A stretch of 64,000 nucleotides of DNA from Negaprion brevirostris. Lineage: Eukaryota. A program made the translations under genes and the position numbers. The stretch is taken from NCBI GenBank assembly GCA_030324005.1, contig JARDVH010000031.1:40287203-40351202 (forward strand), read 5' to 3'. Shown here one piece after another: positions 14,350 to 41,814 of the stretch (positions within the stretch are counted from its first letter, which is position 1; each line of letters starts with the position of its first letter). Under the pieces are notes generated by a model. The model worked only from the letters and a program-made list of their open reading frames with translations, was not told the origin of the DNA and ran no database searches.

Positions 14350-15154
14350 AGGTCCAATTATCGTCGTCCTCATTTATGAACTAAACTGGACAACTCCTTA
14401 CTTTCTAGGACATAACTGCAGGTTAGGTGGTTTGGGTGAAACACCATGTAGAGCAGAAAAGCTTGTTGCAAAAAAAAATGCATTTATCTTTTGTAGTATA
14501 ATAATCCATTCCATGTTTTCTCTCTGATACTAATACCGTTTGATCATTCACTGTGGTTGTTGGTTTACAATTGGATATTCTGTCTGACCCTGTATCCTCA
14601 ATCTGTTGAAGATCAAGAAACTATCCGTTATTTTTAAACACCAAGTAAGCTAGTTAATAGCTGATGAAAACATTAATTTTGGGTTCCATCTGATCCACTG
14701 CAAGGCACTGACTGTACAGTAGTTTTTTTCAAAAATATTTTCAAGATTGCAGAAACTTGTCAAGTATAACACACAATTGGGACGCACTATGTTTTTTTAA
14801 ATTTACTTATAACTCCACTGCTTACATAAATGTTAGTATCGCTCATATCCTATGTTGAAATGTGAAAATAGTAGTAGCGTCATCAAAATGTATGATCGTC
14901 GGTTTTTTTAAAAAATATTTTAACCTAACTGTTGCTTCGCGACACTCTTTCGGCTTGTGAGATTTAAATTAGATTATAAACATCATGTTGGAAAGAGATA
15001 ATTGATGGGACCGGTCATGTTAATCATTGTAGCTACGGGGGAGTTGAATGTTAGTAAGTCTACAGGAACAATTACAAGTGAATCTCTTTCTCCGAGAGCG
15101 TAGAGATTCCATTACTAACCATCTGCAATTCAAAGTGAATAAGTCAAGCGCGTG

Positions 15155-15340
15155 AACAAATATAGGAAATGGGAGCAGGCCACTCGGCCCCTCGAACCTG
15201 CTTCACCATTCAATAAGATGCTGGCTGATCTGATTGTAACCTTAACCTCACATTCCTACATAACCCCGATAACCTTTTACCGCCTTGTTACTCATGAATC
15301 TATCTGGCTCTGCCTTAAAACATTCAAAACCCAGAGAGTC
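15155..15340 (-). mobile_element. CR1-clade LINE 3' end
   Basis: GGAGCAGGCCACTCGGCCCCTCGAACCTGCT...CCATTCAATAAGATGCTGGCTGATCTG is the reverse complement of a tail like that at 510-585. Confidence 0.75.
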
Positions 15341-15599
15341 TTTAGGCATTGCTAATTTTCATCGTTTCCGGATTTAAATAGGCTGGAGAAGATATTTATT
15401 CCTTAATTTTATCTTATTTAGGATAAATTACAATAATGACGAGTTTAAACATATTAACTATCCTAGCTGAATTAGTTACTGCAAATGGTTTAACATACAT
15501 TGTAATGATTTCATTCTTCCATTCTATATTAGAATATTAATAAGAAAGGATTAACTTGCATTCATTCAAAGCCTCCTGACACTGCCGCTAAATGACGCG

Positions 15600-15965
15600 T
15601 GGGCAGCGTTGTGCTTTTGGGGAAAGGCAGCAGTTAATTTGCGCACACTGAGATCTCAGGAATGGGCTGTCAGATCGTGTGGATTTTTGTCCTGCTCCCA
15701 CAGGTCTGTTTTGGTGATTTGGGTTGATGGATAAATATTAGCCAGGACATTGGAAAACGTCCCTGCTGTCCCTCGAATAGTGCCATCGGATATTTCGAGT
15801 GTACCTGAGAGAGCAGATAAGGTTCGCTTGAACATCTCCGAAAGAACAGCGCGGCACTTGGTGCTACATCATGCGTTGTGTGCTCAGAACCCTGCAGTGG
15901 GGCTTTAACGCCGCCCCCCCCCCTCCCTCCTATCTCAAAGGCTGCTCATGAACCTCGGCTGATAC
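15600..15965 (-). mobile_element. DeuSINE (SacSINE1/AmnSINE1-like)
   Basis: GCAGTTAATTTGCGCACA...GGATAAATATTAGCCAGGACA...CGAATAGTGCCATCGGAT...ACCTGAGAGAGCAGA...TGTGCTCAG..CCCTGCAGTGGGGCTT matches the Deu-domain SINE consensus as I recall it. Confidence 0.7.
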
Positions 15966-18900
15966 TTNNNNNNNNNNNNNNNNNNNNNNNNNNNNNNNNN
16001 NNNNNNNNNNNNNACCAAAGTTATTTGGGTCAATTTTCCTTAGCGAATTAGTAAACCACACAATTAATTTCTAAAATCAAATAAATAGCCACGGTTGACA
16101 ATTACAAGAGCTATATCGTTACAATTAGGTTTCTGACTAAGCATTGAGCGAACCCGTAAATATTCCATTCCGTTATTCTAAAGGAAAGCACTGCTTTTCT
16201 AGAGTGCACTCGATACATTCGCTAACCGCATTTCCCATTCTGATTGTGGTGACCACCACAAATCACCTCTGAATCCTGGTAGCTGTAATGCGAGAATGTG
16301 ATTTCATGTGGCATTAAATAATTCATTCCGACGCCTTGTTTGATGTGAAGGGGCTTATCGACGAAAAAGCTGGCATCCTAGCCTGCAAAAAAATTTTTTA
16401 AATTATTTCTGCGATTTTCAATAAGCGCTTTTAAACAGGCATCAAACATTTAAAAATGAATCTCCCCAAGATTGTGAACAATTTAAAAAATCGTTTATCA
16501 TCTAAATGGTTGATTGTACATATAAAATGGAAAAGTAGCTGGAATTATCTGATGTATTTTCTTGATTAGAAATAAATGTAAAACAAACTATCTTTGACAT
16601 AAATACTGTAGTGACAGGCAGCTGTGTAAAATTCGGGAAACGAACTATTGAAAGTAATGGTGCAAACATTGTTGGAAGCAATTTTTGAGACTGTTCAGGA
16701 ATGAAACCAGAAAGTATTTCTGAACAGCAAATGTTAAATGTCAGCTCCGGTCAATTTCCATTTATGTTAGTAATTAAGAGACACATATCTAGACCTAAAC
16801 GCGGAGACAAAACCTTACTTTTCCTTTTAAAGTATATATATATTTTCGCTGGGGATTGAATTGTTTTCACTTTAGGCATCCGGTTCCAGCATTAAACACT
16901 TCCAGGTCGGAATTAAAGCATATTTTTATTTCGCCCCAACAATGTGTGCTGTTGCACGGAGATGGCTAGTTTCTCCATTTCCCACAGTGTACTCATGGCC
17001 TCTCTGAGTAAGCTGCCAATTAGTGCCCAATTAGAGACAGTTTTGTGCTACATGTCTGTGCCAACTGGATACTGCCCAAGCCCTCTTTAGCCAGGGCCCT
17101 AATAATCTCATTATATCTGACAGCACTGGATTTGAGTTTAGGTGCCAGAGGTGAAAGGCCAATATCTAATCAACGGGACGAATCCTTCCCTACAAAACTT
17201 CACATGTTTGATGAATTTATGTTGTTTGGAAAATGCCTTGACAGGTTAATGCATCCTGACTGTTTTACTTTGTGTTTAATATGCCTCAGAAAGGAAAGAT
17301 CCGTAACGTTCTCGCGAAACATTGGCTATCCTGGCCTAGTACTTAAGGAAATACTTCATTTAAGATAAGTGTATAATTCAAAATAATTTCTCGACTCGCA
17401 TTGATAATGTCGGGTGAGATAAGCACATGTTTTTGTTTGTGAACCGGAAGGCTAGATTTGGGGTAATTGCATTATGATGATTGAAACATGTGCAAACGTT
17501 CGCCAATATTTGTACAGAAAGGAGGCAAAGATGTGTGTTTTAAAACTGGGTGTTAAGTGCGAAGTAGATCGAGCCCCGTTCACCCCCTTTACTCAACAAT
17601 CACGTTGTTTCGATTCCAGAAATTCATTTCGCTCAAGAAGCCATGATGCCCCTCGAAATCGTCTTAGTTTCATGATGCATTTTGGCAACACGCATAATAG
17701 GTTCAAGATTAAACGAAGCGCAGTGGTCCAGAGGTATTATGGTATCATTTCACTGTGATTCTATCATGAGGTCACATCAGATAAAATGTACCCAGTGATT
17801 TAATTATTTTCAAGAGTCCCCATTAGGAACACGTAGAAACGTTGTAACCTCACGCCTGTGAACTTCTGTGAAATGAACGCTTGAAAGTTCATTAAAAGAG
17901 ACATGTACAACGAATACGTGATCTTCAGATGATTGGCTTTTTAAAAATGTATCCATTATTATGTTTACATCAGCTCGCATTTCGAGAACCAACGCTTCAG
18001 TCTTTGCAAAAGAGGAATGTGAAATGACCACATTGCATGTAGCAGATATTAAGCTGATTGTCGGGAGGAACTTGGTTACAGTCAGAACACCAACACAGCA
18101 ACATTTAAAATAATCCATACATAATCATAAGACCTGATTCACTATCCGATTTCAACCCTACAAGATGTATGATGCAAACATCTCGCTTGAAGGGAACCTT
18201 ATACTAAATGTCGCCAAACTGGAATAAGTTTCTTACAAACCCCGCACGTTTAGAATACTAACCAGTTGATCCTGTATCTAATGTTTTATTTTCTTTAGCT
18301 TTATCGATTTTAATGAACTATGCTGACTTTACATATTGATTCATTTAGTCTGCAATTGGCGAGAGTCTTTAACCAGGTTTAGCATATTCTGGTAAATTAG
18401 GGATGCACAAATTAGGTTAGACTAAATTGAATACTAATGCCAAGGCAGAGATCTTTACCGTAGTGTTTCAGTACCTGACACTGTGCAATGTCATAGCTAA
18501 TCCCAAGAGCAGAGGCAGATTCTGCAAGTAACTCTTGCTAATCGGTTGCCATAATGCAACATGCCTATAACATATGAAGCTTGTCATGGTCCTGGCATAT
18601 TACCTCGTCAGTTTCATCATGGTTCATTTTTGCATAACGAATATAAAATGTAATAATCGACCACAAGGAATGGGGATGTAATTTTTTCTTATAAACCTTT
18701 TGGAAAAGGAATGAAATAGAAGACTGAAGTACATTTATAACAAATTTCTTAGTAACGTGGTCCCGCACTTCAGCGCCAATAGGTACAAGTATCAGTGATT
18801 GTTTCTGATGACGAATTCAGCTCATGCATACAAAAATATGTCTTAAAGGGTGAAATGGAGCGACTTAACTAAGCACATGTCCGAATGTAATATCATAAGG

Positions 18901-20426
18901 AACAGCATTGGTATGACAATATACAACATCGGTTTTCAGTGAGATCCCTACTTGTTAGTTACGAAGCCGGATCAAACTTAAATTGAGTAAATGCTCGTAT
19001 AGTCCCTATTTCAGTATACACGCAGGACTAAACTCTGGCAATATGTTATTGGGAACAATTCATATAGCGTAATCGGCCACGGTAGATTCCTATCTCGTTA
19101 GAGCGTGACTTATTTTACTTCGGGGCAAGGCATTTCAAAGAGAGAGCTACAAATAGAAAGCAATGTATTAAATATAATTTTAAACGTTGGTATAATATTG
19201 AAATAGAACTGCTGTTCAGCTGTTCACAGTAAAACGCATATATGCCAATTAAAATAATTTGCCGCTGATATATTTATTTTCTCATTATCAGTGCCAATAA
19301 AAACGCGACAGGGACTAGTTTGTTGAAGAAAGAAAAATTCGTTAACATCATGAACGTTTCGCTATACACCGGATTACATTGTCTATCAGTGTTAAACGGT
19401 GCTGAATGGATTCGATACATTTTTATGAAGACCCGTCCTGAAATAATTTCATGCCGCAACTGTTACCGACTGTAACCTACAGTTAGTGTGATAGGGGGCC
19501 TTTCATTGCTGGGAATGGGCTTCGCCAGTTTGCTGTAAGCACGTGAAATGTTTACGTCGAACAAATGTAAACGTGCGCATTGTATGTAATGATATAGCTA
19601 ATCTCGAACCGTAATTGCGACTTGATTTCTGTGTCAATACGTTGAATTTCCAACCTCCCGAATTTACTTGGAGCACGTGTATGTGCAAATGATTAGCGAG
19701 GAACACAATGTAACAACTCATGATTCAGTGAGAGGCTCAATCCGGTGGCAATTACAATGTAGATAAATACCAAAATGAACAAGCCACAAATTATGTTCGT
19801 CTTTACTCAGTATTTGGACAATCTGCATATTGAAGCAGCGGTGAGCCGATGAGGCGTGGCCACTCAGCAGCATGTTGTTCCAATTGGCTGCAAAGAGCTG
19901 TCAGTTATGTTCACTGTCCAAATGTCCTAACAAAATGTTTATATTCATGAGATGTTTCTAGGGTAAACTGATAAAGTTTAAACAAAACGGAGAATGCCTG
20001 ATATGTTTCCTGCTCCAAGATATATATGCCCATACGTATAATATAATCTGTGCTTTAAAGAGTCTGTCATCTGTGGCTCGAGTAACCTAGTTAGTTTTTC
20101 AATGCACTTATCTTTCGGGCAGCGGTTAGTTCAGTTGGTTAATGGTACATGGGTCAGATTAATATCAACAGCACGGAGATCGAACCCCATTCCAGCTCCT
20201 CATCCTACCCATTAGTAAAAATCACAGCAAATTGCTTAAGCAGACGAACATTATATATTGAAGAAGAAAAATGTTGTAGGGAGCAAAGAGCAGAATCAAC
20301 GGTGTCAGGGAATAGCCCATCAATGGTACGCCCTTCTTGTTTGCCATGAACACCGTGGACCAGTGGCATATTAATTGTGCGTCAGTCATAAAGCAACATT
20401 AAATATTCATTTATGCAGTACTACAA

Positions 20427-20439
20427 TGAACTTTGACCT
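20427..20439 (-). promoter_or_regulatory. Consensus DR1 nuclear-receptor element
   Basis: Minus strand AGGTCA-a-AGTTCA. Confidence 0.5.
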
Positions 20440-20625
20440 TTAAAGCTTATCTAAAGATAAGATGTGCACATTACATTAATGTATGCATTCACAAGTTAAA
20501 ACAAATTGGTGGGGAAACGACAAACATATATTTCATGCCTGTTATTGAAATATCTGTACACATATATTGATCGCAACAGAAATGGATAAAGATTAAGAAT
20601 CGACCTCGATCGTTTTGCTTTCTCA

Positions 20626-20642
20626 TGAACTTTCAGTGAACC
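20626..20642 (-). promoter_or_regulatory. DR5 retinoic-acid response element 3' of HoxD1
   Basis: Minus strand GGTTCA-ctgaa-AGTTCA, one spacer base from the Hoxa1 3' RARE (GGTTCA-ccgaa-AGTTCA). It lies ~3.1 kb past the HoxD1 stop. Confidence 0.75.
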
Positions 20643-21699
20643 TGGCGCTTGGGGGTGGGATCGGTGGGATGCCTGCTGTGGTTCACCCTTCTACAACCCC
20701 TTTCAGGCAGAGTAAATATTGAATAGTCCTTCCGCTCTGGGCAGAAATAAAACTGGATATCAAACAAGTGCAAACGACTATTGTGACCCTTACAATGCAG
20801 TCACAGTTACGAACAGTTTTCGTATTGTGCTAATAAAATCCCTGGCATCCCCCACCTCTTCAGGGGCTTTGGGGGAGTAATCAGGACTGGGATCAGAGGT
20901 ATGATAACATAAAAGCGAACAATAGGCGCCTAACAGCAAGAGACAAGACAAAGAGCCAGCAAGTTTATAACATGCAATCGCGCCAGGATATGCCATTTCC
21001 CGGGGCGTAACCAAGCATTACTTATTCAGACTCTCAAAAAATATCACATTTTAAAACCACACTTCTGGCCTGCGTGAAGCATGTGCCTCTGCCTGAAAGC
21101 AAAATAGAAATTTTGTGCAATCAGGTTTCAGATAAAACACGTCTTTCTGGGCACAGTAGAGCTCGGAGATTGCCCATTGCGAGCCACCATCAAAGCATTG
21201 CGGATTCCATATCAAAGATCTCCGTGCTGATTCCCAAGGAGATCATTGTAAATTTTACGACTTGAGCAGCTCTTTGAAATGCCGCTTCTCAGGGGCCGCT
21301 GTGTGTTATTTTAGTGCAACTGTAATTAACACCAAGTTGTTAAGGCCAAATGGTCGAAATGTTTGAGAGAAAAATATAGGCATGTTCATTTGTGCCTTAT
21401 ACAACATGTGGTCGAAGTATGCACTGACACTTTGAGTGTGATTCACCAGTTTGCACTCATACACAATTACAGAAAAGCAAAAATCAAGATTGAAGAGTTT
21501 TATGTTCAGTTATTACAGTGATTAGGTTTCCTTGCCTCACAAAAAACGCTGCAGCTCAATTTTTAAACAAACATTCCAGCAAAGCCTAAAGATGGGATTG
21601 TGTATATATTTAAAATGTTTAATCATAACCGGGCCATCTAAAGCCTGTTTCAACTTGGTATACAGATTTACTTTGCCCAAGTTTAATCCTACAATCGCT

Positions 21700-21805
21700 C
21701 CTACATGACACAGTGACCTCGCTTCAAAAGTATTTTATTGGCTGTAAAACTCTTTGAGGCGCCCTGAAGTCATAAAATGCGTTAAATACAAACACGTTCT
21801 CTTTG
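21700..21805 (+). mobile_element. DeuSINE/L2-type 3' tail
   Basis: ACAGTGACCTCGCTTCAAAAGTATTTTATTGGCTGTAAAACTCTTTGAGGCGCCCTGAAGTCATAAAATGCG is the sense version of the motif seen reversed at 8040. Confidence 0.6.
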
Positions 21806-23761
21806 CCTTCCCTTTGAGTAGCCTGAACTACAGCATCAATTTCACACCGACACATAGGCTCAATTTCAGGTAATGCCAAACATATCAATGAACCAGTAAA
21901 TGGTTGCTCGAAATTCCTATTAACATCCAAGGGGGGAAAAAAAGGATGATTTGTACCAAAATTTCAACGGGCTAATTACATCGCTATGCTAACTTTAAGG
22001 ACTCAACGAATCTTGAATCGGTACAAAAATTAAGTTCGGGTCTTGAATCACTGCAACAGTCAGCTTGAAGTGTAGTTATAGACCTTTAAGCAGCATTATG
22101 CACAACACGTCGCTACGAATTATAATTCGAAAATAATTGTGACATGTTAACATGGAAACAGTCATTTTAAACTGATGTTACGATTTTGACATATTGTTTG
22201 TGAAAAACAAGCAATATGTTATTTTTTATATTTTTGTTTTAATAGAATGCTGAAGATTATTTTTTCCCGAAAGTTCCCACCGTCACTGTTGGACTCGCAT
22301 TCTCCTAACCAATACTAGTGAGAGGTAACTTGTGTTTAAAGCTGCGTGGCATAGACTTTCAGCTGATCAGCCGATTCATGGAAACCAATTCAAACGAGCA
22401 TACGAGTCTCAAATGATGTTCAATTGATTTGGAAATTGAATGGATGTTTTCCCTCTTGCATTCATCATTAGGTCGGAAGTTGCTGAGCGAAGATGTTTAA
22501 TCCAAGAGGACTCATCATAACTTGTTAACAATGCAAAGGCCCGCTTCTTCCCTGAGAAGGGAGAACTATCACTAAATACATTTTTTCAAAAATAGCTTAG
22601 ATTCAACTGAAGTTACTAACAGAAATAACAGTAAAAGATAAATGTTAAAGTCTCTTATTTCAACTGCAGATAACCACTCACATTTTAATATCAGAATCGT
22701 AAAATCACTGATTGTGCTGAAATGGTGTTAACTAATCAAGATTTATCTGAAAGTGGGAGACAATGGCCTTCTTGTTTATTTTATGTATCAGTGCGTAAAA
22801 TTCATTGAGTCACACATTTTAGTTCATATTTGCATTAAACTGGAGATTGTTGCCTTCACGCACTTTCCAGATTAAAGTGGATGTCTTGGTCGAACCCTGA
22901 AATCCAATTCAAAGCTGCACTCAACAGAAAATTCGAGAGGTTTGAAAGCATTACATGTGTTCTGACATATTTTATTCCACGGCCTTTGCATGTTCCTACT
23001 ATTGAGCATTATAATTGTACAGTGGCAGTAACTACAGCCGATAAACAGTTTCCGATAAAGAATGGATTAAGTTATAAGCTTTTAAGTCAATTCGCAATAG
23101 AGCAGAATACATCATGACGAGTCTTTAATATACAATGGTTAAGTATCACAGAGGTAGAGTAGCCAAGTAACATAATACTAAGGAAAGAATGCTAGATAGG
23201 CACAGTGTTACATAGCAGCAACCACAATCTTTCAACCTGAGGCATAATTGTGCAAACTTCACTCATTGAGGAGTTACGTCGAACATGCTACGTTACATTC
23301 GTCAATGTCATCGCACATAAATCAATAAAAAATACAGTACATGTAAACAATTCCTTTTACGCAAGTAAGAGTTTCAGCAAGGCAGTTCAGAGCAAAAACC
23401 TGGTAAATTGGGGCAGTTTGTTGTTGTTGAGACTTTGTTTATAAAGCCTTACACACTGCCTGTGCAAACGTGTTAAGAAAAGAAATACACTTCACACTAC
23501 TTGAGGTGATACATTTTGTTTAGCCTTCTCACTTTAACTGTGTTTATGTTGCTACACATTGCAGGTCAAAGTGGAAACTTTGGCCAAACCATTTGGAGTC
23601 CATTTCAATATGTTACAGAGTTTTAAACCATCTCAAACCAATATATTCAAACAATCGAGTCTGCGTCTCTTGATCGAATAAAAGTGAACACTTTGGTCGT
23701 GTTCTAAATGATTGCGATATTTTCCGCCAAAAAAGCGTTGAAAGTTAAGGCCTCAGGAGAG

Positions 23762-24117
23762 TTACTTCTGCTCAACAAAGTTTGGAGTTTCTGACGAGCT
23801 CTTTGTGGGTGGGGAAGGTAAAGGCGAGGTAGTGTCCGAGCTTTCTGTGGATGCTGAATCCTGACTACAGTTCACAGAAGCCACATTGGCCAGAAAACCT
23901 TCTCTCTCCCTCTTCTTCTGTTTCATTCTTCTGTTCTGGAACCAGATCTTCACCTGGGTTTCACTCAGTTGTAACGCGTTTGCTATTTCCACACGTCTGG
24001 CTCGCGTTAGGTATTTGTTAAAATGGAATTCCTTCTCCAGCTCCGTCAGCTGTTTGGTGGTGAAGTTTGTACGCGGTGTGCTCGGAGGGCTGAGGACTCC
24101 GTAGTCAGTCGTTTTGG
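23762..24117 (-). CDS. HOXD1: HoxD1 exon 2 (homeodomain)
   Basis: Acceptor TTTTGTAG|CC. Encodes [70 protein letters not shown] (paralogy group 1 homeodomain) through a TAA stop. Confidence 0.95.
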
Positions 24118-24547
24118 CTACAAAATGACATAGTTAGGCAGTTATAGTTAGGCAGAGTATTCCAGTGGAAGACATAGAGTTAGTAAGCTAATTTATTTCA
24201 CAGTGCCACTTATTTCCCAATCTCCCACCCCCGAAAGTGTTATTGAAAACGATTCCATTCTCAGTGTCATTGCTCCAGCACAACTAACGGCAATGATATG
24301 AGCCGGAATTGGGGGTGGGGGGNNNNNGGAATTGTGTGCAGGAGGCGAAACGATTGGAACAGCGGTGCACTTCACCCTTAAGGGTCACTTCATCTCAATA
24401 AATTGACACTGTCAATGAAAGGGTTAATACAGAATTAATGCTTTGAACGAATCTTACAGAAGGCCAATAAACTGCAGCAGCCTTTATACATACGCACAAT
24501 ATATATTCTGCACTTTCAGCTCCAGATTTCCGAGGTAATTGACTGAC

Positions 24548-25112
24548 CTGCTTTGGGAGGGTTTCGCTTCACTTTCATCCACTCGAAGGTATTGGCTGTG
24601 CTGAGTTTCTGTGCTGTGGGAGACTCCGACCTATGGTAACCACCCTGACACGTCGACAGGCTCTGATAATGCCCGGGATAAAAGTTTGGGAACTCCTTGC
24701 CAAAGGTTTGATTTTGTTCCGGCTCCCCAAACAGATTGCTGTATTGGTGCTGGCGCGCAGTGAGCGGAAAAGACGCGCTTCCTGAGTAAACAGAGGTGGT
24801 GTATGGGATAAGTTCGCCAGTGTCATCCTGTTCCTGGTTAGCAGCGTAAGGAAAGTCATAACCGACATTGCTCTGAGGTAAGAAGTTAATATCTATGGAT
24901 GCAGAGGAGTCATCGGGAAGTTCGAGGGTGGCAGGTACCGGCTGATGGAGGTGATGATGAGTGGGAGATGGATTACCTACCGATTCATTTGAAACACAGC
25001 GACCTTGTCCGGGGCACTGCTGCAGAGAGACTGCTGGAGAGTTACTGTGACAAAACTTTGGCGAAAAGGTCAGAATGTCTGCACTGGGAATGTATTCTAG
25101 GTAAGAGTTCAT
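24548..25112 (-). CDS. HOXD1: HoxD1 exon 1
   Basis: MNSYLEY N-terminus, TFEWMKVKRNPPK hexapeptide region, phase-1 donor CAG|GTCAGT. Spliced CDS is 921 nt (306 aa). Cluster identity comes from MTX2, miR-10b and D3/D4 residues. Confidence 0.93.
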
Positions 25113-25214
25113 TCTTCCAATGATGGGCTGGAGCAGAATGGGCTGTTTAGCTGTAGCTGATAGCTGTCTATCCCTGATCACCATAGCAGATCCTTCACTT
25201 CCTTCGCAAAGGAC

Positions 25215-25313
25215 GTAAATATTCCTAATATAGAGCAAGGAAGTCACGTGGTTGTGTCCCTCCCATCACTGCAGTCTCAGTCAGCGCTATTGCATGGCGT
25301 CCGGAGCTGTTCG
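25215..25313 (-). promoter_or_regulatory. HoxD1 proximal promoter
   Basis: E-box CACGTG at 25245-25250 and an AT-rich TATA-like TATATTA just downstream on the minus strand; CpG-enriched. Confidence 0.55.
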
Positions 25314-28300
25314 NNNNNNNNNNNNNNNNNNNNNNNNNNNNNNNNNNNNNNNNNNNNNNNNNNNNNNNNNNNNNNNNNNNNNNNNNNNNNNNNNNNNNNN
25401 NNNNNNNNNNNNNTGGCGTCCGGAGCTTTTCGCTCAGCCGCCGAGGGGAGTGGGCGCTGCAATGCTCTCACCATCTATTAACATCACATCATCAGCACAG
25501 TTAGCAGAGGCGTTCGCTAACCTTACTCACACTGCGGACCATCCTCCGAAAGCCCGTCCTAAGGTAAGATATCCCTTTCCGTGCTGCAGAATAAGGAGAG
25601 GTCTGAGCTGTGTGATGGTGGCGCTGACTGTAAAGGCTCACAGTCTGCTGTCAGCAGTCTTGGCGATTCTATGATGCAGTGATCATCGAATGAGGCTACA
25701 AGGTGACTTAAGTGTTTCGTGGCCTTGACGATCGTCACAGCAACAGCAAATCCATAATGGAGAGAGCGCGCGAAAGGATAAAGCAAACGGCTACTTACCT
25801 GATTTCTGAAGTTGAATTCACGGCCCTGCTCCTGTCCCTCCCTCGGTGTAGTGTAGAGTTTATAGAATAACCCAAGTAAACGTCTACTGTACTTACCTTC
25901 TCAGAAGTGCTAATTTCTCCGGAAGTAACATTAACCGACAGAATAATCATGTCCATAAGGAGTTTCACAACGTGAGATGTTTGTGACATTGTTAAAATTT
26001 TGAACTGTTTAGCAAATATGTGAAGTGCGACTGCTTGTCCCGCGTGCAGGTGANNNNNNNNNNAGCTTCCTCGCTCCTCAATCGGCACCCTGTCAATTAT
26101 CATTAATAGCAAAGAACGTTGTAACAGTCCGTAAATGTTTTTAAAGTGATCAACGTTATTAACCTAACTGTATAACTGAAAAGGCTGAAGTCAAAGGTAA
26201 GATATTCTATGTTAACGCCAATGAGTTGTTTCTTTCACTCCCCAGTATTGGCCCTTGCTAATTCTGAATTCGCTTTCTGCCCTGCTCGTTCTGTGCTGTA
26301 GGAAATGTTTAAAGTACGTTAAAAAATGAATTGAAACACAGATCAAATGAAATGTTAGAAAAATAAGTTCCCAAATTGCACAGTCGAACAATTGCAATCG
26401 TTCCGGTAAATCGATAAATCAATTTAAATATTTTGATTTATTTAGTTAATGTGTTACTAAATATTATTTCATCGTGGTATACTTCCGTGATAGCAGCCGA
26501 GTTAGAGTCATTTATCTGTCAAAACACTCACTGGCGAAACTCTAACTCAGTCAGTTGATCTGTTTGAGTAAAGCACGTGAAGACTTGCTCTTTTTAATCG
26601 CCAGGGGCAGTGTGCAGTCTAATTCAAATGAGCAGCTTGTTAGGTGCCGTGTCATTACCTCGTGCATATGTTAAAACATAGCATTAGAGTAGTTTGAAAT
26701 AAATTTATTCAATCATAGAACGGATTGAAAATATATATTCTGTATGTAGCATTCGAAATCTAAAATCTATATCTACAACACAGTATGCCTGTTCTTTCGA
26801 TGTTTGATTATCACTTTCGGCGTTTCTAATCGAAATCCTGCTGCTCCAGTTCGATTTTTAAGTGGGCATCAACCGAGCTCGCACCCTCTCTCTTGTGTTC
26901 CCTTGCAATTGAATCTTGAGTAATAATGTTTGTGTTGCTGCTCTCCTGCTTGAGTCAAAGGTACATCTTATCAAAACCCTTCTCATCCATTTTGCGGTCA
27001 GCATGCTGAATCTGATCGTGAAAAGCCGTGTTATGTATAATGCAGAAGGAAGTGAGTTTGCGGGCTTTGAAAGCATACACTGGGTTTGCAAATGGCTAAA
27101 ATTTCTGCATAGCTAATTCAACACTGCATCCCGCCTTCTCATTTGCATTGCCGTTGTCTTTGGGTGTTTTGCTAACATATCTTTGAAGTTTTACTTTGAA
27201 GGATATATGCAGCTTTATAAGTATAAATCTCTCTTTTCCTAATAAGGTGTTAACAGCAGTATGTGATGAATATATTGGGCATTATTCAAATTAAGTATTT
27301 TAAAAATCCCAATATTTAGGCCTTTTCGTTGTGTTTCTCAAAAGCAGATTTTTTTTAAAAAAAGTGCAGAACTTTGTTTCTAACTACTTAGCGTTTACTT
27401 TTCTCCATTGAAATCGGATGCTGATCATTGGTGGGCGTTTAATTGAGCGCTCGGCTGGAACAGTCATCCACAGCAAGTTCACTTACGTTGCTACCGCACT
27501 CAAAATATAGGTCTGTGCAGGCAGCAAAAAAAATGTGCTCAAAGTTGAGATGGTCATTTCCGAACATGTGCACGCATGAACAAACGTGCTGCAATTCTTA
27601 ATCGGAAAGATCGAATATTTTTTCCAATTATCATCGTTGTTTGCTGACGTGGAATTTATAAATATAAAATCAACTCATTCCGAGTTCCAAAGTTTCTTCT
27701 GAGGTTCACACGTTCCATATTAAAATAATAAAGGAAGTTAATTGGAATGTTGGTTCCTTTTGACAGCTACAGACAATACTTCTTTGCAATCTTGACTAAT
27801 TACTTAAATGAACATAGGCAGTCATGTGAATGCGTGTTTAATTTTCAGCGCACTTAAGTATAGTTTTGTAAAGAGTGAATGGTGACAGACCCACATATTT
27901 ACTTCTCTAAACACTTAACTATTCTTTATAAAAAGCAGTTCGACCAATCTATTTCTGGAGTTCCTCTAGTTGCATCTAGTTGCCGCCAACTCTGCAACTA
28001 GATCAGCTGATTTAGACAGCTTGGCGGCGGGGGTGGGGTGAGGCGACAATAACTGAAGAATGCACTGTCAGTTAGAGACAGGCTTGCAGAAGGTGCGGAT
28101 TCACTGCAGTAGCGTGTGAAAATATTCCCAAATCTGTGTGAGCTTCTGGATTTGAAAGAGACGGCATTTTCCTCATATTCACAATCAAAACTTTTCTGTT
28201 TACTTCGTGTTAGACCGTCACGAGTCTGGAGCAAAAGGGATAGAGACATCCTGGCAATAGGCGACTAATGATTCGGGTCTAGTAAACATCAGGATTATTC

Positions 28301-31874: not shown

Positions 31875-32623
31875 CTAAAACTGCAACTGCTGAAAATCGG
31901 TGGAGCTAAAATTGTCACTTAGAAAGTCAAACACGTTGGATGGAATAACTAATGTGTCCTCGTTTTCCAACAAAGAAAATTGAGGTAATTCTTCTATCAG
32001 ATCTAGATGTGGTTCGATTGTAATTTTGTCTAAATCCTCCAAAGATGGGATGCTGAAACTCTCTGGACTGCCAGGACTTGTTCCAGCTGAGCAGTTTTTC
32101 AGCATAGGCATCAGGGAGTCAGTTTCATCTGAGTTCTGGGGAAAGTAGTGGCTGCGAGTCCCCTCAGTGCAGATCAGAGAAGTGCCAATAACACTGAACA
32201 GGTCGCTGCTGATATCACTCAACACATCTTGATGAGCGGAATCGCTCATCTCTCGCTCAGCAATCTTTTCGCTGTCTAGCGAATCCAAAGTTTTATTTAC
32301 AGGTGTCTCAGCAAAACTTCTTGTGGAAATTCCACTCTGATTAGCGCTGTTAACAAATTGGCGCTTTGAATCAGCGTTTTGGCTTTGTTTGAATCGAGTC
32401 TGTCTTTTGTGCTTCATGCGCCTGTTCTGAAACCAGACTTTGACTTGCCTTTCTGTTAAATCGAGCAGAGCCGCGATTTCTACCCTCCGAGGTCTGCAGA
32501 GGTAACGATTGTAATGAAACTCCTTTTCCAGCTCCAACAGCTGAGTGTTTGTGTAAGTAGTTCGTAGTCTCCTGGAGCTGTCGAAAGGACTCCCGTTGTC
32601 CGGTTCATTAAGCTCTTCATTCT
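31875..32623 (-). CDS. HOXD2: HoxD2 exon 2 (homeodomain)
   Basis: Acceptor CCCTCTTTACAACAG|AG. Encodes [60 protein letters not shown] (PG2) and a PG2-type C-terminus [17 protein letters not shown]. Confidence 0.93.
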
Positions 32624-33012
32624 CTGTTGTAAAGAGGGAAAAGTTTGGATAAGTTATCACAAATCTTTCCAAATATAATCCAGCAACATAAAATGGCCGC
32701 CTCCGAGACACAAAAGGCTTCCAGCAGAAAATGGCCCAGCAGAGCAACAGAAAGATAATCCAGCTGCCTGCGGTTGGGTTGTGTGCAGGTTACTGATACC
32801 TACAGATTACGAGGAGTGTCCTAGACTTTAGTAGCCACTATTTACATTTTGGATATTGTTGGGATGTGAGCATTTTGCAGGTCTGACAGCTTTCAATCTA
32901 TGGAACATGTTGTTACTTCAAAATTGAATCCCTTAAGAAAATACTCTCTGTACACCGTATATGACACACGCACAAAAAAACTAATAGTAAAGGAAAATAC
33001 TATTGACCTGAC

Positions 33013-33358
33013 CTTCGTTAGAAGAACAAGATGAGAATGATCCCGTCGCTGGCACATTTTTTTTCTTGTGGCTTTTCTTTTCTTTCATCCACGGATATTC
33101 CAGAGGTTTATCCCCTAACGTGGCCCGACCAATGCCTTTTGAAGTGTGGGTTTTCCCATTTTGGTTTGTGTTACCATGGTCCAAGCTGCCGAAGCCCTGC
33201 TCAAAAGGAGGAGGAATCAGTGTCGAATGTGAAAGCGTCGAGTTCTTGATTGATGAACTTTGAAATGTCTCGCCAACAGGAGGAAAGGATGTCAGGCACT
33301 CGGCAAGCGATGGCTCACTATTGATAAAACCAACCTCTCTCTCAAACTCGTTGTTCAT
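33013..33358 (-). CDS. HOXD2: HoxD2 exon 1
   Basis: [30 protein letters not shown]2 N-terminus, EYPWMKEKK hexapeptide, phase-1 donor AAG|GTCAGG. Spliced CDS is 1095 nt (364 aa), in frame. Confidence 0.93.
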
Positions 33359-33419
33359 TTCTGCCCGGGCAGAATCGTTTAGAAAATTGCCTATTTGATA
33401 GTTACCTTGAAAATATATA

Positions 33420-33550
33420 TTTATAAAATGTACTGATTACAAACGCTAAGGGACTGTGCTATTATTAAACTATGTCTATTGAATACACAGACACGACGTT
33501 GAGATGAGGCTGATTTTATCGTCACATGATCGCCTTAACCAATGACAAGA
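33420..33550 (-). promoter_or_regulatory. HoxD2 promoter / 5'UTR with PG2-conserved motifs
   Basis: Minus strand TGTCATTGGTTAAGGCGATCATGTGAC (CCAAT + E-box), then TAGTTTAATAATAGCACAGTCCC...TGTAATCAGT, which resembles the Hoxa2 leader as I recall it. Confidence 0.65.
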
Positions 33551-41770: not shown

Positions 41771-41814
41771 TGAACTCTGTTTGAACCTAAATCGCAGCCA
41801 CGGGCCATAAATCA
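41771..41814 (-). promoter_or_regulatory. DR5 RARE upstream of the HoxD3 coding exon, with adjacent Pbx/Hox site
   Basis: Minus strand GGTTCA-aacag-AGTTCA (41771-41787), matching the DR5 known between Hox4 and Hox3 paralogues. TGATTTATGG (minus) at 41805-41814. Confidence 0.8.

What the first reader, a model, noticed from the sequence alone, without database searches (positions are those of the whole stretch)
20427..20700. Hoxa1-type 3' DR5 RARE plus a perfect DR1 downstream of HoxD1
Seen: CAGGTTCActgaaAGTTCA (minus, 20626-20642) lies 3.1 kb past HoxD1, with a perfect DR1 AGGTCAaAGTTCA ~190 bp further on and another GGTTCA half-site near 20680. Known: Hoxa1 and Hoxb1 have 3' DR5 RAREs, the Hoxa1 one being GGTTCAccgaaAGTTCA, and I do not recall an equivalent being well characterised for Hoxd1. 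Inference: this is a paralogous enhancer from before the genome duplications, retained at shark HoxD1, possibly with DR1 (COUP-TF/RXR/HNF4-type) modulation.
Basis: partly seen in the sequence, partly recalled or inferred. Interest (0 to 1): 0.7.

Follow-up and report, generated by a model that had tools for sequence, protein, structure and literature searches.

The report
Third copy of Hox1 retinoid enhancer
A shark's HoxD1 gene is followed by the same three-part DNA element that lies behind its sister genes HoxA1 and HoxB1, so this likely retinoic-acid (vitamin A) switch, known from mouse Hoxa1 and Hoxb1, probably predates the duplications that made the vertebrate Hox clusters.

Summary
Observation confirmed, and larger than reported. 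The gene is HoxD1. The same three blocks lie in the same order, strand and similar spacing 3' of this genome's HoxA1 and HoxB1. Composite patterns hit those loci in 3 of 4, 2 of 2 and 3 of 3 genome-wide matches (patterns built after seeing the alignment). In 4 of 4 other runs laid, both DR5 half-sites and the DR1 are unchanged, and the 521-bp core differs by 2.3% against 5-6% in flanks. The DR5 matches the mouse Hoxa1 3' RARE at 16 of 17 bases (PMC7259794). Verdict: HoxD paralogue of the Hoxa1/Hoxb1 3' DR5 enhancer, inherited from one ancestral Hox1. RA response, bound factors and target are untested; conservation beyond close sharks is untested. I found no report of a HoxD1 copy, but key comparative papers were not held.

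The parts
20699..20725 (-). Block 1: TCAATATTTACTC (20710-20722) followed by TGAAAGG; forkhead (FoxA-type) site by recalled consensus; probably the mouse 'CE2' element (label recalled)
   Evidence: 13-mer identical in the HoxD1, HoxA1 and HoxB1 3' flanks; longest word shared by the three 6-kb flanks, reached by 0 of 96 control triples. One change in 1 of 4 other runs (20713), which keeps a forkhead-type consensus.
20680..20685 (+). Lone GGTTCA half-site, HoxD-specific, role unknown
   Evidence: no reverse half-site in the A or B modules; no change listed in 4 of 4 runs.
20626..20642 (-). Block 2: DR5 retinoic acid response element GGTTCA ctgaa AGTTCA
   Evidence: 16 of 17 bases equal to the mouse Hoxa1 3' RARE as printed in PMC7259794 Table 2; half-sites unchanged in 4 of 4 runs, one spacer change at 20632; DR5 at the same place in A and B.
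20427..20439 (-). Block 3 core: DR1 AGGTCA a AGTTCA (COUP-TF/HNF4/RXR-type site by recalled consensus)
   Evidence: Identical in HoxA1, AGGTCAaAGGTCG in HoxB1; unchanged in 4 of 4 runs.
20388..20426 (-). Block 3 tail: ACTGCATAAATGAATATTTAAT, AT-rich conserved block 7 bp behind the DR1, factor unassigned
   Evidence: DR1 plus tail 45 of 52 bases identical to HoxA1, E 8.7e-8 against the whole genome; present in all three paralogues; no change listed in 4 of 4 runs, one change at 20420 in run X6.
23762..24117 (-). HoxD1 coding exon 2 (homeodomain), likely target gene
   Evidence: splice site read from the sequence.
24548..25112 (-). HoxD1 coding exon 1
   Evidence: 96% to a shark Hox-D1-like protein; groups with shark and marsupial HoxD1 at 100/100 support.

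Best explanation
This is the HoxD copy of a three-block element (forkhead-like site, DR5, DR1 with AT-rich tail) that also lies 3' of HoxA1 and HoxB1 in the same genome, likely inherited from the single pre-duplication Hox1 gene, and it likely acts as a retinoic-acid-responsive enhancer of HoxD1. Predicted working: an RXR/RAR heterodimer sits on the DR5 and switches from co-repressor to co-activator when RA is present (inferred from the mouse Hoxa1 element); a FoxA-type factor on block 1, 67 bp away, would open the site and bias it to endoderm, notochord or floor plate (inferred from motif); a DR1-binding nuclear receptor (COUP-TF as damper, or HNF4/RXR as helper) with an AT-rich-site factor would tune the output (inferred from motif). 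Shown: the sequence, its paralogy and its constraint among close sharks. Inferred: binding, RA response, tissue and target promoter, 4.5 kb away.
For: Gene identities: window HoxD1, C132 HoxA1, C154 HoxB1 (tree); a metaxin-family exon lies 130 kb further 3' on the same strand, as expected for HoxD-Mtx2 synteny (recalled). Blocks at +3040/+3120/+3323 (D), +2875/+2963/+3179 (A), +4581/+4653/+4891 (B) from the stop codon, same strand and order; spacings 67/75/59 and 186/199/221 bp. Local alignment scores 80 (vs A) and 76 (vs B) against maxima of 60 and 50 among 46 control blocks. Genome-wide composite patterns: 3 of 4, 2 of 2 (spacing range excluded B), 3 of 3 matches are Hox1 flanks; reversed-pattern controls 0. 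Not a repeat: 2 matches in the genome; no Rfam match. Constraint: 12 differences in 521 bp in runs X7 and X12 against 28 and 32 expected from flanks, P 4.8e-4 and 3.6e-5. Mouse Hoxa1 3' RARE is required in vivo and carries RA-dependent chromatin marks (PMC7259794, passages); human HOXA1 and HOXB1/B2 DR5 enhancers open and bind RARA in RA-induced pharyngeal endoderm (PMC11312149, passages); Xenopus hoxd1 is called a direct retinoid target (PMC13446568, passage).
Against: No binding, chromatin or reporter data for the D copy. Orthologue data cover only close relatives (about 5% divergent); skates, chimaera and bony vertebrates were out of reach. Within the 521-bp core, motifs are not significantly more conserved than the rest (2 of 22 listed variable sites in 93 bp, P 0.21). 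The D copy lacks the block directly behind the DR5 that A and B share (GCCGAAATTAATTCAG) and the following half-site is altered at 20604 in 4 of 4 other runs, so it may have lost an input. HOXD1, HAGLR and MTX2 have 0 hits in the 8 supplements of the human pharyngeal-endoderm study (files may be cut) and Hoxd1 0 hits in the 4 supplements of the mouse trunk RA study, which gives no support for an active mammalian D copy in those tissues. Factor assignments rest on recalled consensus motifs.
Confidence: 0.76

Rival explanations
1. The module is a true paralogue and under selection, but its main job differs: it is driven by the forkhead and DR1 factors with RA only modulating it, or acts as a silencer, or serves several HoxD genes rather than HoxD1 alone.
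For: The DR1 block is the best-conserved part between D and A (45 of 52). RAREs acting as silencers and RAREs shared by several Hox genes are described (PMC7259794 and PMC8788451, passages). D lacks the A/B block behind the DR5.
Against: The DR5 is full consensus, 16 of 17 like the mouse Hoxa1 activator RARE, and its half-sites are unchanged in 4 of 4 runs.
Confidence: 0.14
2. It is a decaying relic of the ancestral enhancer, still recognisable only because shark genomes change slowly.
For: D has lost the A/B block behind the DR5 and shows no counterpart of the A/B antisense DR2; orthologue depth is shallow.
Against: DNA between and around the blocks no longer aligns among paralogues while the blocks stay 74-100% alike, and the core diverges less than half as fast as its flanks.
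Confidence: 0.05
3. The likeness comes from later gene conversion or copying of the HoxA1 flank onto HoxD1, not from the original duplications.
For: The DR1 block is closer between D and A (87%) than between D and B (74%), while exon 1 joins A1 with B1 under a midpoint root.
Against: Similarity is limited to short separated blocks with unalignable spacers; the upstream block aligns D to B over 117 bp; A and B share a block that D lacks; the three loci lie on three different large contigs.
Confidence: 0.04
4. Chance motifs in non-coding DNA.
For: 1,974 such DR5 sites exist genome-wide; 1 of 4 hits of the block 1 + DR5 pattern is an unrelated locus.
Against: Three blocks in the same order behind 3 of 3 Hox1 genes found.
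Confidence: 0.01

Closest known systems
Mouse/human Hoxa1 3' DR5 RARE enhancer (RAIDR5; Langston et al. 1997 and Dupe et al. 1997 seen only as reference titles; sequence and knockout statement from PMC7259794 passages)
   Same: DR5 about 3 kb 3' of a Hox1 gene; 16 of 17 bases identical to the mouse element; the shark HoxA1 flank, its presumed orthologue, shares all three blocks with this element.
   Different: Lies behind HoxD1; lacks the block directly 3' of the DR5 that shark A and B share; no functional test.
Mouse Hoxb1 3' RAIDR5 enhancer (Thompson et al. 1998, Huang et al. 2002; titles seen; gut activity and CE1/CE2 elements recalled)
   Same: Multi-element enhancer around a DR5; shark HoxB1 carries block 1, a DR5 and a one-mismatch DR1 with the tail in the same order.
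   Different: Shark B copy lies at +4.6 kb, has a weaker DR1 and a separate proximal DR2 that D does not show.
Hox3/Hox4 intergenic DR5 RAREs of the A, B and D clusters (Mainguy et al. 2003, seen only as cited in PMC6767176; mouse A sequence in PMC7259794 Table 2)
   Same: A precedent for RAREs at paralogous positions in three clusters; found here too at window 41771-41787, L014 and L017.
   Different: Different position, spacer and flanks; no forkhead-like block or DR1 was sought there.
Amphioxus Hox-cluster RAREs (Wada et al. 2006, Manzanares et al. 2000; seen as cited in PMC10879103 and PMC3534614)
   Same: Support a chordate-age RA input at conserved positions of the Hox cluster.
   Different: No sequence comparison could be made; whether blocks 1 and 3 exist in amphioxus or cyclostomes is open.

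Membership tests
DR5 retinoic acid response element | Two PuG(G/T)TCA half-sites in direct repeat, 5 bp apart (consensus as in PMC3257687 passage) | tested here: met
   0 mismatches.
DR5 retinoic acid response element | Half-sites conserved in orthologues, spacer tolerant | tested here: met
   4 of 4 runs unchanged in half-sites, 1 spacer change; shallow divergence only; runs X5 and X6 did not cover it.
DR5 retinoic acid response element | Binds RXR/RAR and confers RA-dependent transcription | not testable with these tools
   No binding or reporter data.
Hox1 3' RAIDR5 enhancer family (Hoxa1/Hoxb1) | Lies a few kb 3' of a paralogy-group-1 Hox gene | tested here: met
   +3.0 to +3.4 kb from the HoxD1 stop.
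Hox1 3' RAIDR5 enhancer family (Hoxa1/Hoxb1) | Sequence homology beyond the DR5 with the HoxA1 and HoxB1 3' elements, in the same order | tested here: met
   using this genome's own HoxA1 and HoxB1 flanks.
Hox1 3' RAIDR5 enhancer family (Hoxa1/Hoxb1) | Carries the published accessory elements CE1 and CE2 (names recalled) | tested here: inconclusive
   Primary papers not held (search). Block 1 fits my recollection of CE2. Whether CE1 is the DR1 block (present in D) or the block behind the DR5 (absent in D) could not be settled.
Hox1 3' RAIDR5 enhancer family (Hoxa1/Hoxb1) | Direct alignment to the mouse or human enhancer sequences | not testable with these tools
   Only the 17-bp mouse Hoxa1 DR5 was available; no vertebrate genomes among relatives.
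Hox1 3' RAIDR5 enhancer family (Hoxa1/Hoxb1) | Drives RA-dependent Hox1 expression in embryos | not testable with these tools
   Needs transgenic or deletion assay.
Hoxb1-type 3' DR2 RARE (early neural; role recalled) | Proximal antisense DR2 at about +1.2 to +1.6 kb | tested here: not met
   Present in B (+1627) and A (+1212), no counterpart with up to 1 mismatch in D; D's sense DR2 at +2043 falls in a repeat fragment.
Interspersed repeat or structured RNA | Many copies in the genome, or an Rfam match | tested here: not met
   2 matches genome-wide (this search skips common words); 0 Rfam matches in 15000-26000; single-copy contig depth.

The most novel reading that the evidence does not exclude
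The forkhead + DR5 + DR1/tail module is the ancestral vertebrate Hox1 3' enhancer, already complete before the first genome duplication and built with an endodermal grammar (FoxA, RAR, HNF4/COUP-TF). Its HoxD1 copy is unreported, persists in non-mammalian jawed vertebrates where it explains the direct RA response of hoxd1 (as in Xenopus), and its decay marks lineages where HoxD1 took on new roles or was lost.
Probability: 0.3. Interest if true: 0.72.

Novelty: new member of a known kind. Interest (0 to 1): 0.52.

Why it matters
Enhancers that can still be aligned across three clusters born in the early vertebrate genome duplications are uncommon. A third copy shows which parts of the classic Hoxa1/Hoxb1 RA enhancer are ancestral (forkhead-like block, DR5, DR1 with tail) and which are confined to A and B (block behind the DR5, proximal DR2). 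It gives a 340-bp query to look for the RA switch of hoxd1 in frog, chick and mammals and for the ancestral element in lamprey, hagfish and amphioxus, which makes the question of how RA became wired to Hox1 genes directly testable. The mechanism class itself is well known.

Tried and rejected
1) A fourth half-site behind the DR5 (AGGTCG, 20601-20606), aligned with GGGTCA in A and B: rejected as a D element, since 4 of 4 other runs differ at 20604. 2) Fourth hit of the block 1 + DR5 pattern on C163: no shared flanks and no DR1 in the fetched stretch; taken as chance. 3) DR2 at +2043 of HoxD1 (window about 21705-21718): in a multi-copy repeat fragment and of opposite orientation to the A/B DR2. 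4) Motif-versus-spacer constraint inside the core: not significant (P 0.21). 5) Metaxin search with PF10568 found no exon on this contig; PF17171 did. 6) Pattern had a wrong gap length and found nothing; corrected. 7) Runs X5 and X6 have coverage holes over the DR5 and say nothing about it; 6 of the 24 listed runs were laid. 8) Ten paper searches showed no title or passage on a HoxD1 3' RARE; in the word-start searches 'hoxd1' also counts Hoxd10-13. 9) Earlier scan notes: nothing on this element.

Full report
Observation. Across the 64-kb window only three strict direct repeats with spacers 0-8 exist, these two and a DR5 at 41771-41787; about 0.14 per spacer class is expected. Genome-wide there are 1,974 RGTTCA-N5-AGTTCA sites, so the DR5 alone would be suggestive, not decisive.

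Gene identity. The window holds Hox4, Hox3, Hox2 and Hox1 genes on the minus strand, with a Hox5 just beyond its end. Exon 1 of the Hox1 gene is 96% identical to a shark Hox-D1-like protein; of 11 hits, 4 are named Hox-D1-like in sharks, 2 Hox-A1-like in sharks and 5 Hox-D1 in marsupials. A tree of 19 exon-1 sequences (16 chosen by me from the search hits) puts it with shark and marsupial D1 at 100/100, the C132 gene with A1 and the C154 gene with B1 (long-branch warning given, midpoint root only; searches agree). A metaxin-family exon lies 130 kb further 3' on the same contig and strand, in keeping with HoxD-Mtx2 synteny (recalled). A homeodomain search found three Hox1-like genes among 21 matches.

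The element is a three-block module shared by all three Hox1 genes. I fetched the 3' flanks of HoxA1 and HoxB1 and scanned and aligned them. Block 1, TCAATATTTACTC, lies at +3040 (D), +2875 (A) and +4581 (B) from the stop codon. Block 2, a DR5, lies at +3120, +2963 (AGTTCAcccaaAGTTCA) and +4653 (GGTTCAcggagAGTTCA). Block 3, a DR1 with an AT-rich tail, lies at +3323, +3179 (identical DR1) and +4891 (AGGTCAaAGGTCG). Spacings are 67/75/59 bp and 186/199/221 bp. The 411-bp D block scores 80 against the A flank and 76 against the B flank; 46 control blocks from the window reach at most 60 and 50. The 13-mer is the longest word common to the three 6-kb flanks; 0 of 96 control triples reach 13 and 1 of 96 reaches 12. 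Genome-wide, block 1 + DR5 gives 4 matches, 3 of them the Hox1 flanks; DR5 + DR1 gives 2, D and A, the range excluding B; DR1 + tail gives 3, all Hox1 flanks; reversed controls give 0. These patterns were made after seeing the alignment, so they test uniqueness, not an unbiased probability. A BLAST of the D module finds only itself and the A block 3; Rfam finds nothing.

What D lacks. A and B share GCCGAAATTAATTCAG and a further half-site right behind the DR5; D does not keep the first, and its version of the second is changed in 4 of 4 other runs. A and B also share an antisense DR2 at +1212 and +1627 with weakly alignable flanks; D shows no counterpart within its first 3.1 kb. By recollection the B DR2 is the early neural RARE of mouse Hoxb1 and the B DR5 enhancer is active in gut. 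If so, D kept the DR5 module and not the DR2.

Constraint among sharks. Of 24 listed runs I laid 6, from 6 coded organisms. Over 20340-20860, runs X7, X12 and X18 carry 12, 12 and 9 differences (plus a 2-base gap in X18), and X16 carries 3 and 4 in two overlapping contigs. X12 and X7 differ by 6.2% and 5.4% in the flanks, so the core is about 2.5 times more conserved (P 3.6e-5 and 4.8e-4). Of 22 listed variable positions, 0 fall in block 3 (20388-20439), 1 in the DR5 spacer (20632) and 1 in block 1 (20713, TATTTAC to TATTTGC, both fitting the recalled forkhead consensus); differences near stretch ends are not listed. This motif depletion is not significant by itself (P 0.21). X6 differs at 20420 in the tail. 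All four runs also yielded a second contig on block 3 whose loose ends equal this genome's HoxA1 flank, so the A copy is kept in them too. These relatives are close; skates, chimaera and bony vertebrates could not be examined.

How it most likely works. Shown: sequence, paralogy, constraint. Inferred from the mouse and human paralogues: RXR/RAR on the DR5 gives RA-dependent activation of the nearest promoter, HoxD1, whose start codon is 4.5 kb away. PMC7259794 (passages, Table 2, supplement search) prints the mouse Hoxa1 3' RARE, which matches the D element at 16 of 17 bases, more than the shark A copy does (15 of 17), and states that its knockout impairs Hoxa1 expression. PMC11312149 (passages, supplement search) reports RARA binding and RA-induced opening of DR5 enhancers near HOXA1 and HOXB1/B2 in human pharyngeal endoderm, with FOXA1/2 active there. 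PMC13446568 (passage) calls Xenopus hoxd1 a direct retinoid target. PMC3634737 (passages) lists a conserved NR2F1 site within 5 kb of the mouse Hoxa1 start without giving its place. Inferred from recalled motifs only: FoxA on block 1, COUP-TF, HNF4 or RXR on the DR1, and an unassigned AT-rich-site factor on the tail. Together these suggest an endoderm or midline bias. I give this reading 0.76; a paralogue with a different main role 0.14; relic 0.05; conversion 0.04; chance 0.01. Against: no hits for HOXD1 or Hoxd1 in the supplements of the two mammalian studies, and PMC9136108 (passage) describes mouse HOXD1 as neofunctionalised, so the mammalian copy may be lost or silent in those tissues.

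Comparison and novelty. It works like, and by homology in this genome belongs with, the Hoxa1/Hoxb1 3' RAIDR5 enhancers; the functional defining feature is untested and the mapping to CE1/CE2 is inconclusive. That RA input to Hox clusters is of chordate age is established (PMC10879103, PMC3534614, PMC6767176, passages). Ten searches and passages of 14 papers (those named above plus PMC8788451, PMC4470032, PMC4805430, PMC3257687, PMC7053487, PMC3707753) showed no HoxD1 3' RARE. This is weak evidence of novelty: Langston 1997, Ravi 2009, Matsunami 2010, Santini 2003, Guo 2011 and Marletaz 2006 were not held, Thompson 1998, Mainguy 2003 and Wada 2006 were seen only as citations, and their supplements may list this element. 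The scan's own notes held nothing on it; two notes on other shark RAREs pointed me to PMC7259794.

Verdict. Real, well supported as a paralogous conserved element; a new member of a known kind; interest 0.52. The most novel reading, a complete pre-duplication enhancer with endodermal grammar and an unreported D copy that explains hoxd1's RA response, has probability about 0.3 and would deserve 0.72.

Noticed in passing
window 41771-41787 (-); L014:1813-1829 (-); L017:4896-4912 (+): DR5 GGTTCAaacagAGTTCA between HoxD3 and HoxD4; HoxA and HoxB carry GGTTCAagaagAGTTCA with near-identical flanks at the matching place, the same 17-mer as a mouse HoxA element in PMC7259794 Table 2. A known paralogous RARE, serving as positive control.
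   Followed up: partly
L003 +1212 and L001 +1627 from the HoxA1 and HoxB1 stop codons (antisense): Shark HoxA1 has a one-mismatch DR2 (AGGTGAaaAGGTCA) at the position and orientation of the HoxB1 DR2 (AGGTAAaaAGGTCA), with weakly alignable flanks: a possible paralogue of the Hoxb1 3' DR2 behind HoxA1.
   Followed up: partly
L003:5757-5785 and L001 directly 3' of the DR5: HoxA1 and HoxB1 share GCCGAAATTAATTCAG plus a GGGTCA half-site behind the DR5; absent or decayed in HoxD1.
   Followed up: partly
window 31875-33436 (-) and L009:2024-3237 (-): Open reading frames for Hox2 and Hox5 paralogues in this HoxD cluster, genes that mammals lack in HoxD (recalled).
   Followed up: no
window 21700-21790: Short multi-copy repeat fragment: hundreds of contigs pile up there; it contains a one-mismatch DR2.
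   Followed up: partly
L004:4897-4910 (+): Strict DR2 GGTTCAtaGGTTCA about 12 kb 3' of HoxA1.
   Followed up: no
window 20151-20163 (+): One-mismatch antisense DR1 about 270 bp beyond block 3; no counterpart seen in A or B.
   Followed up: no
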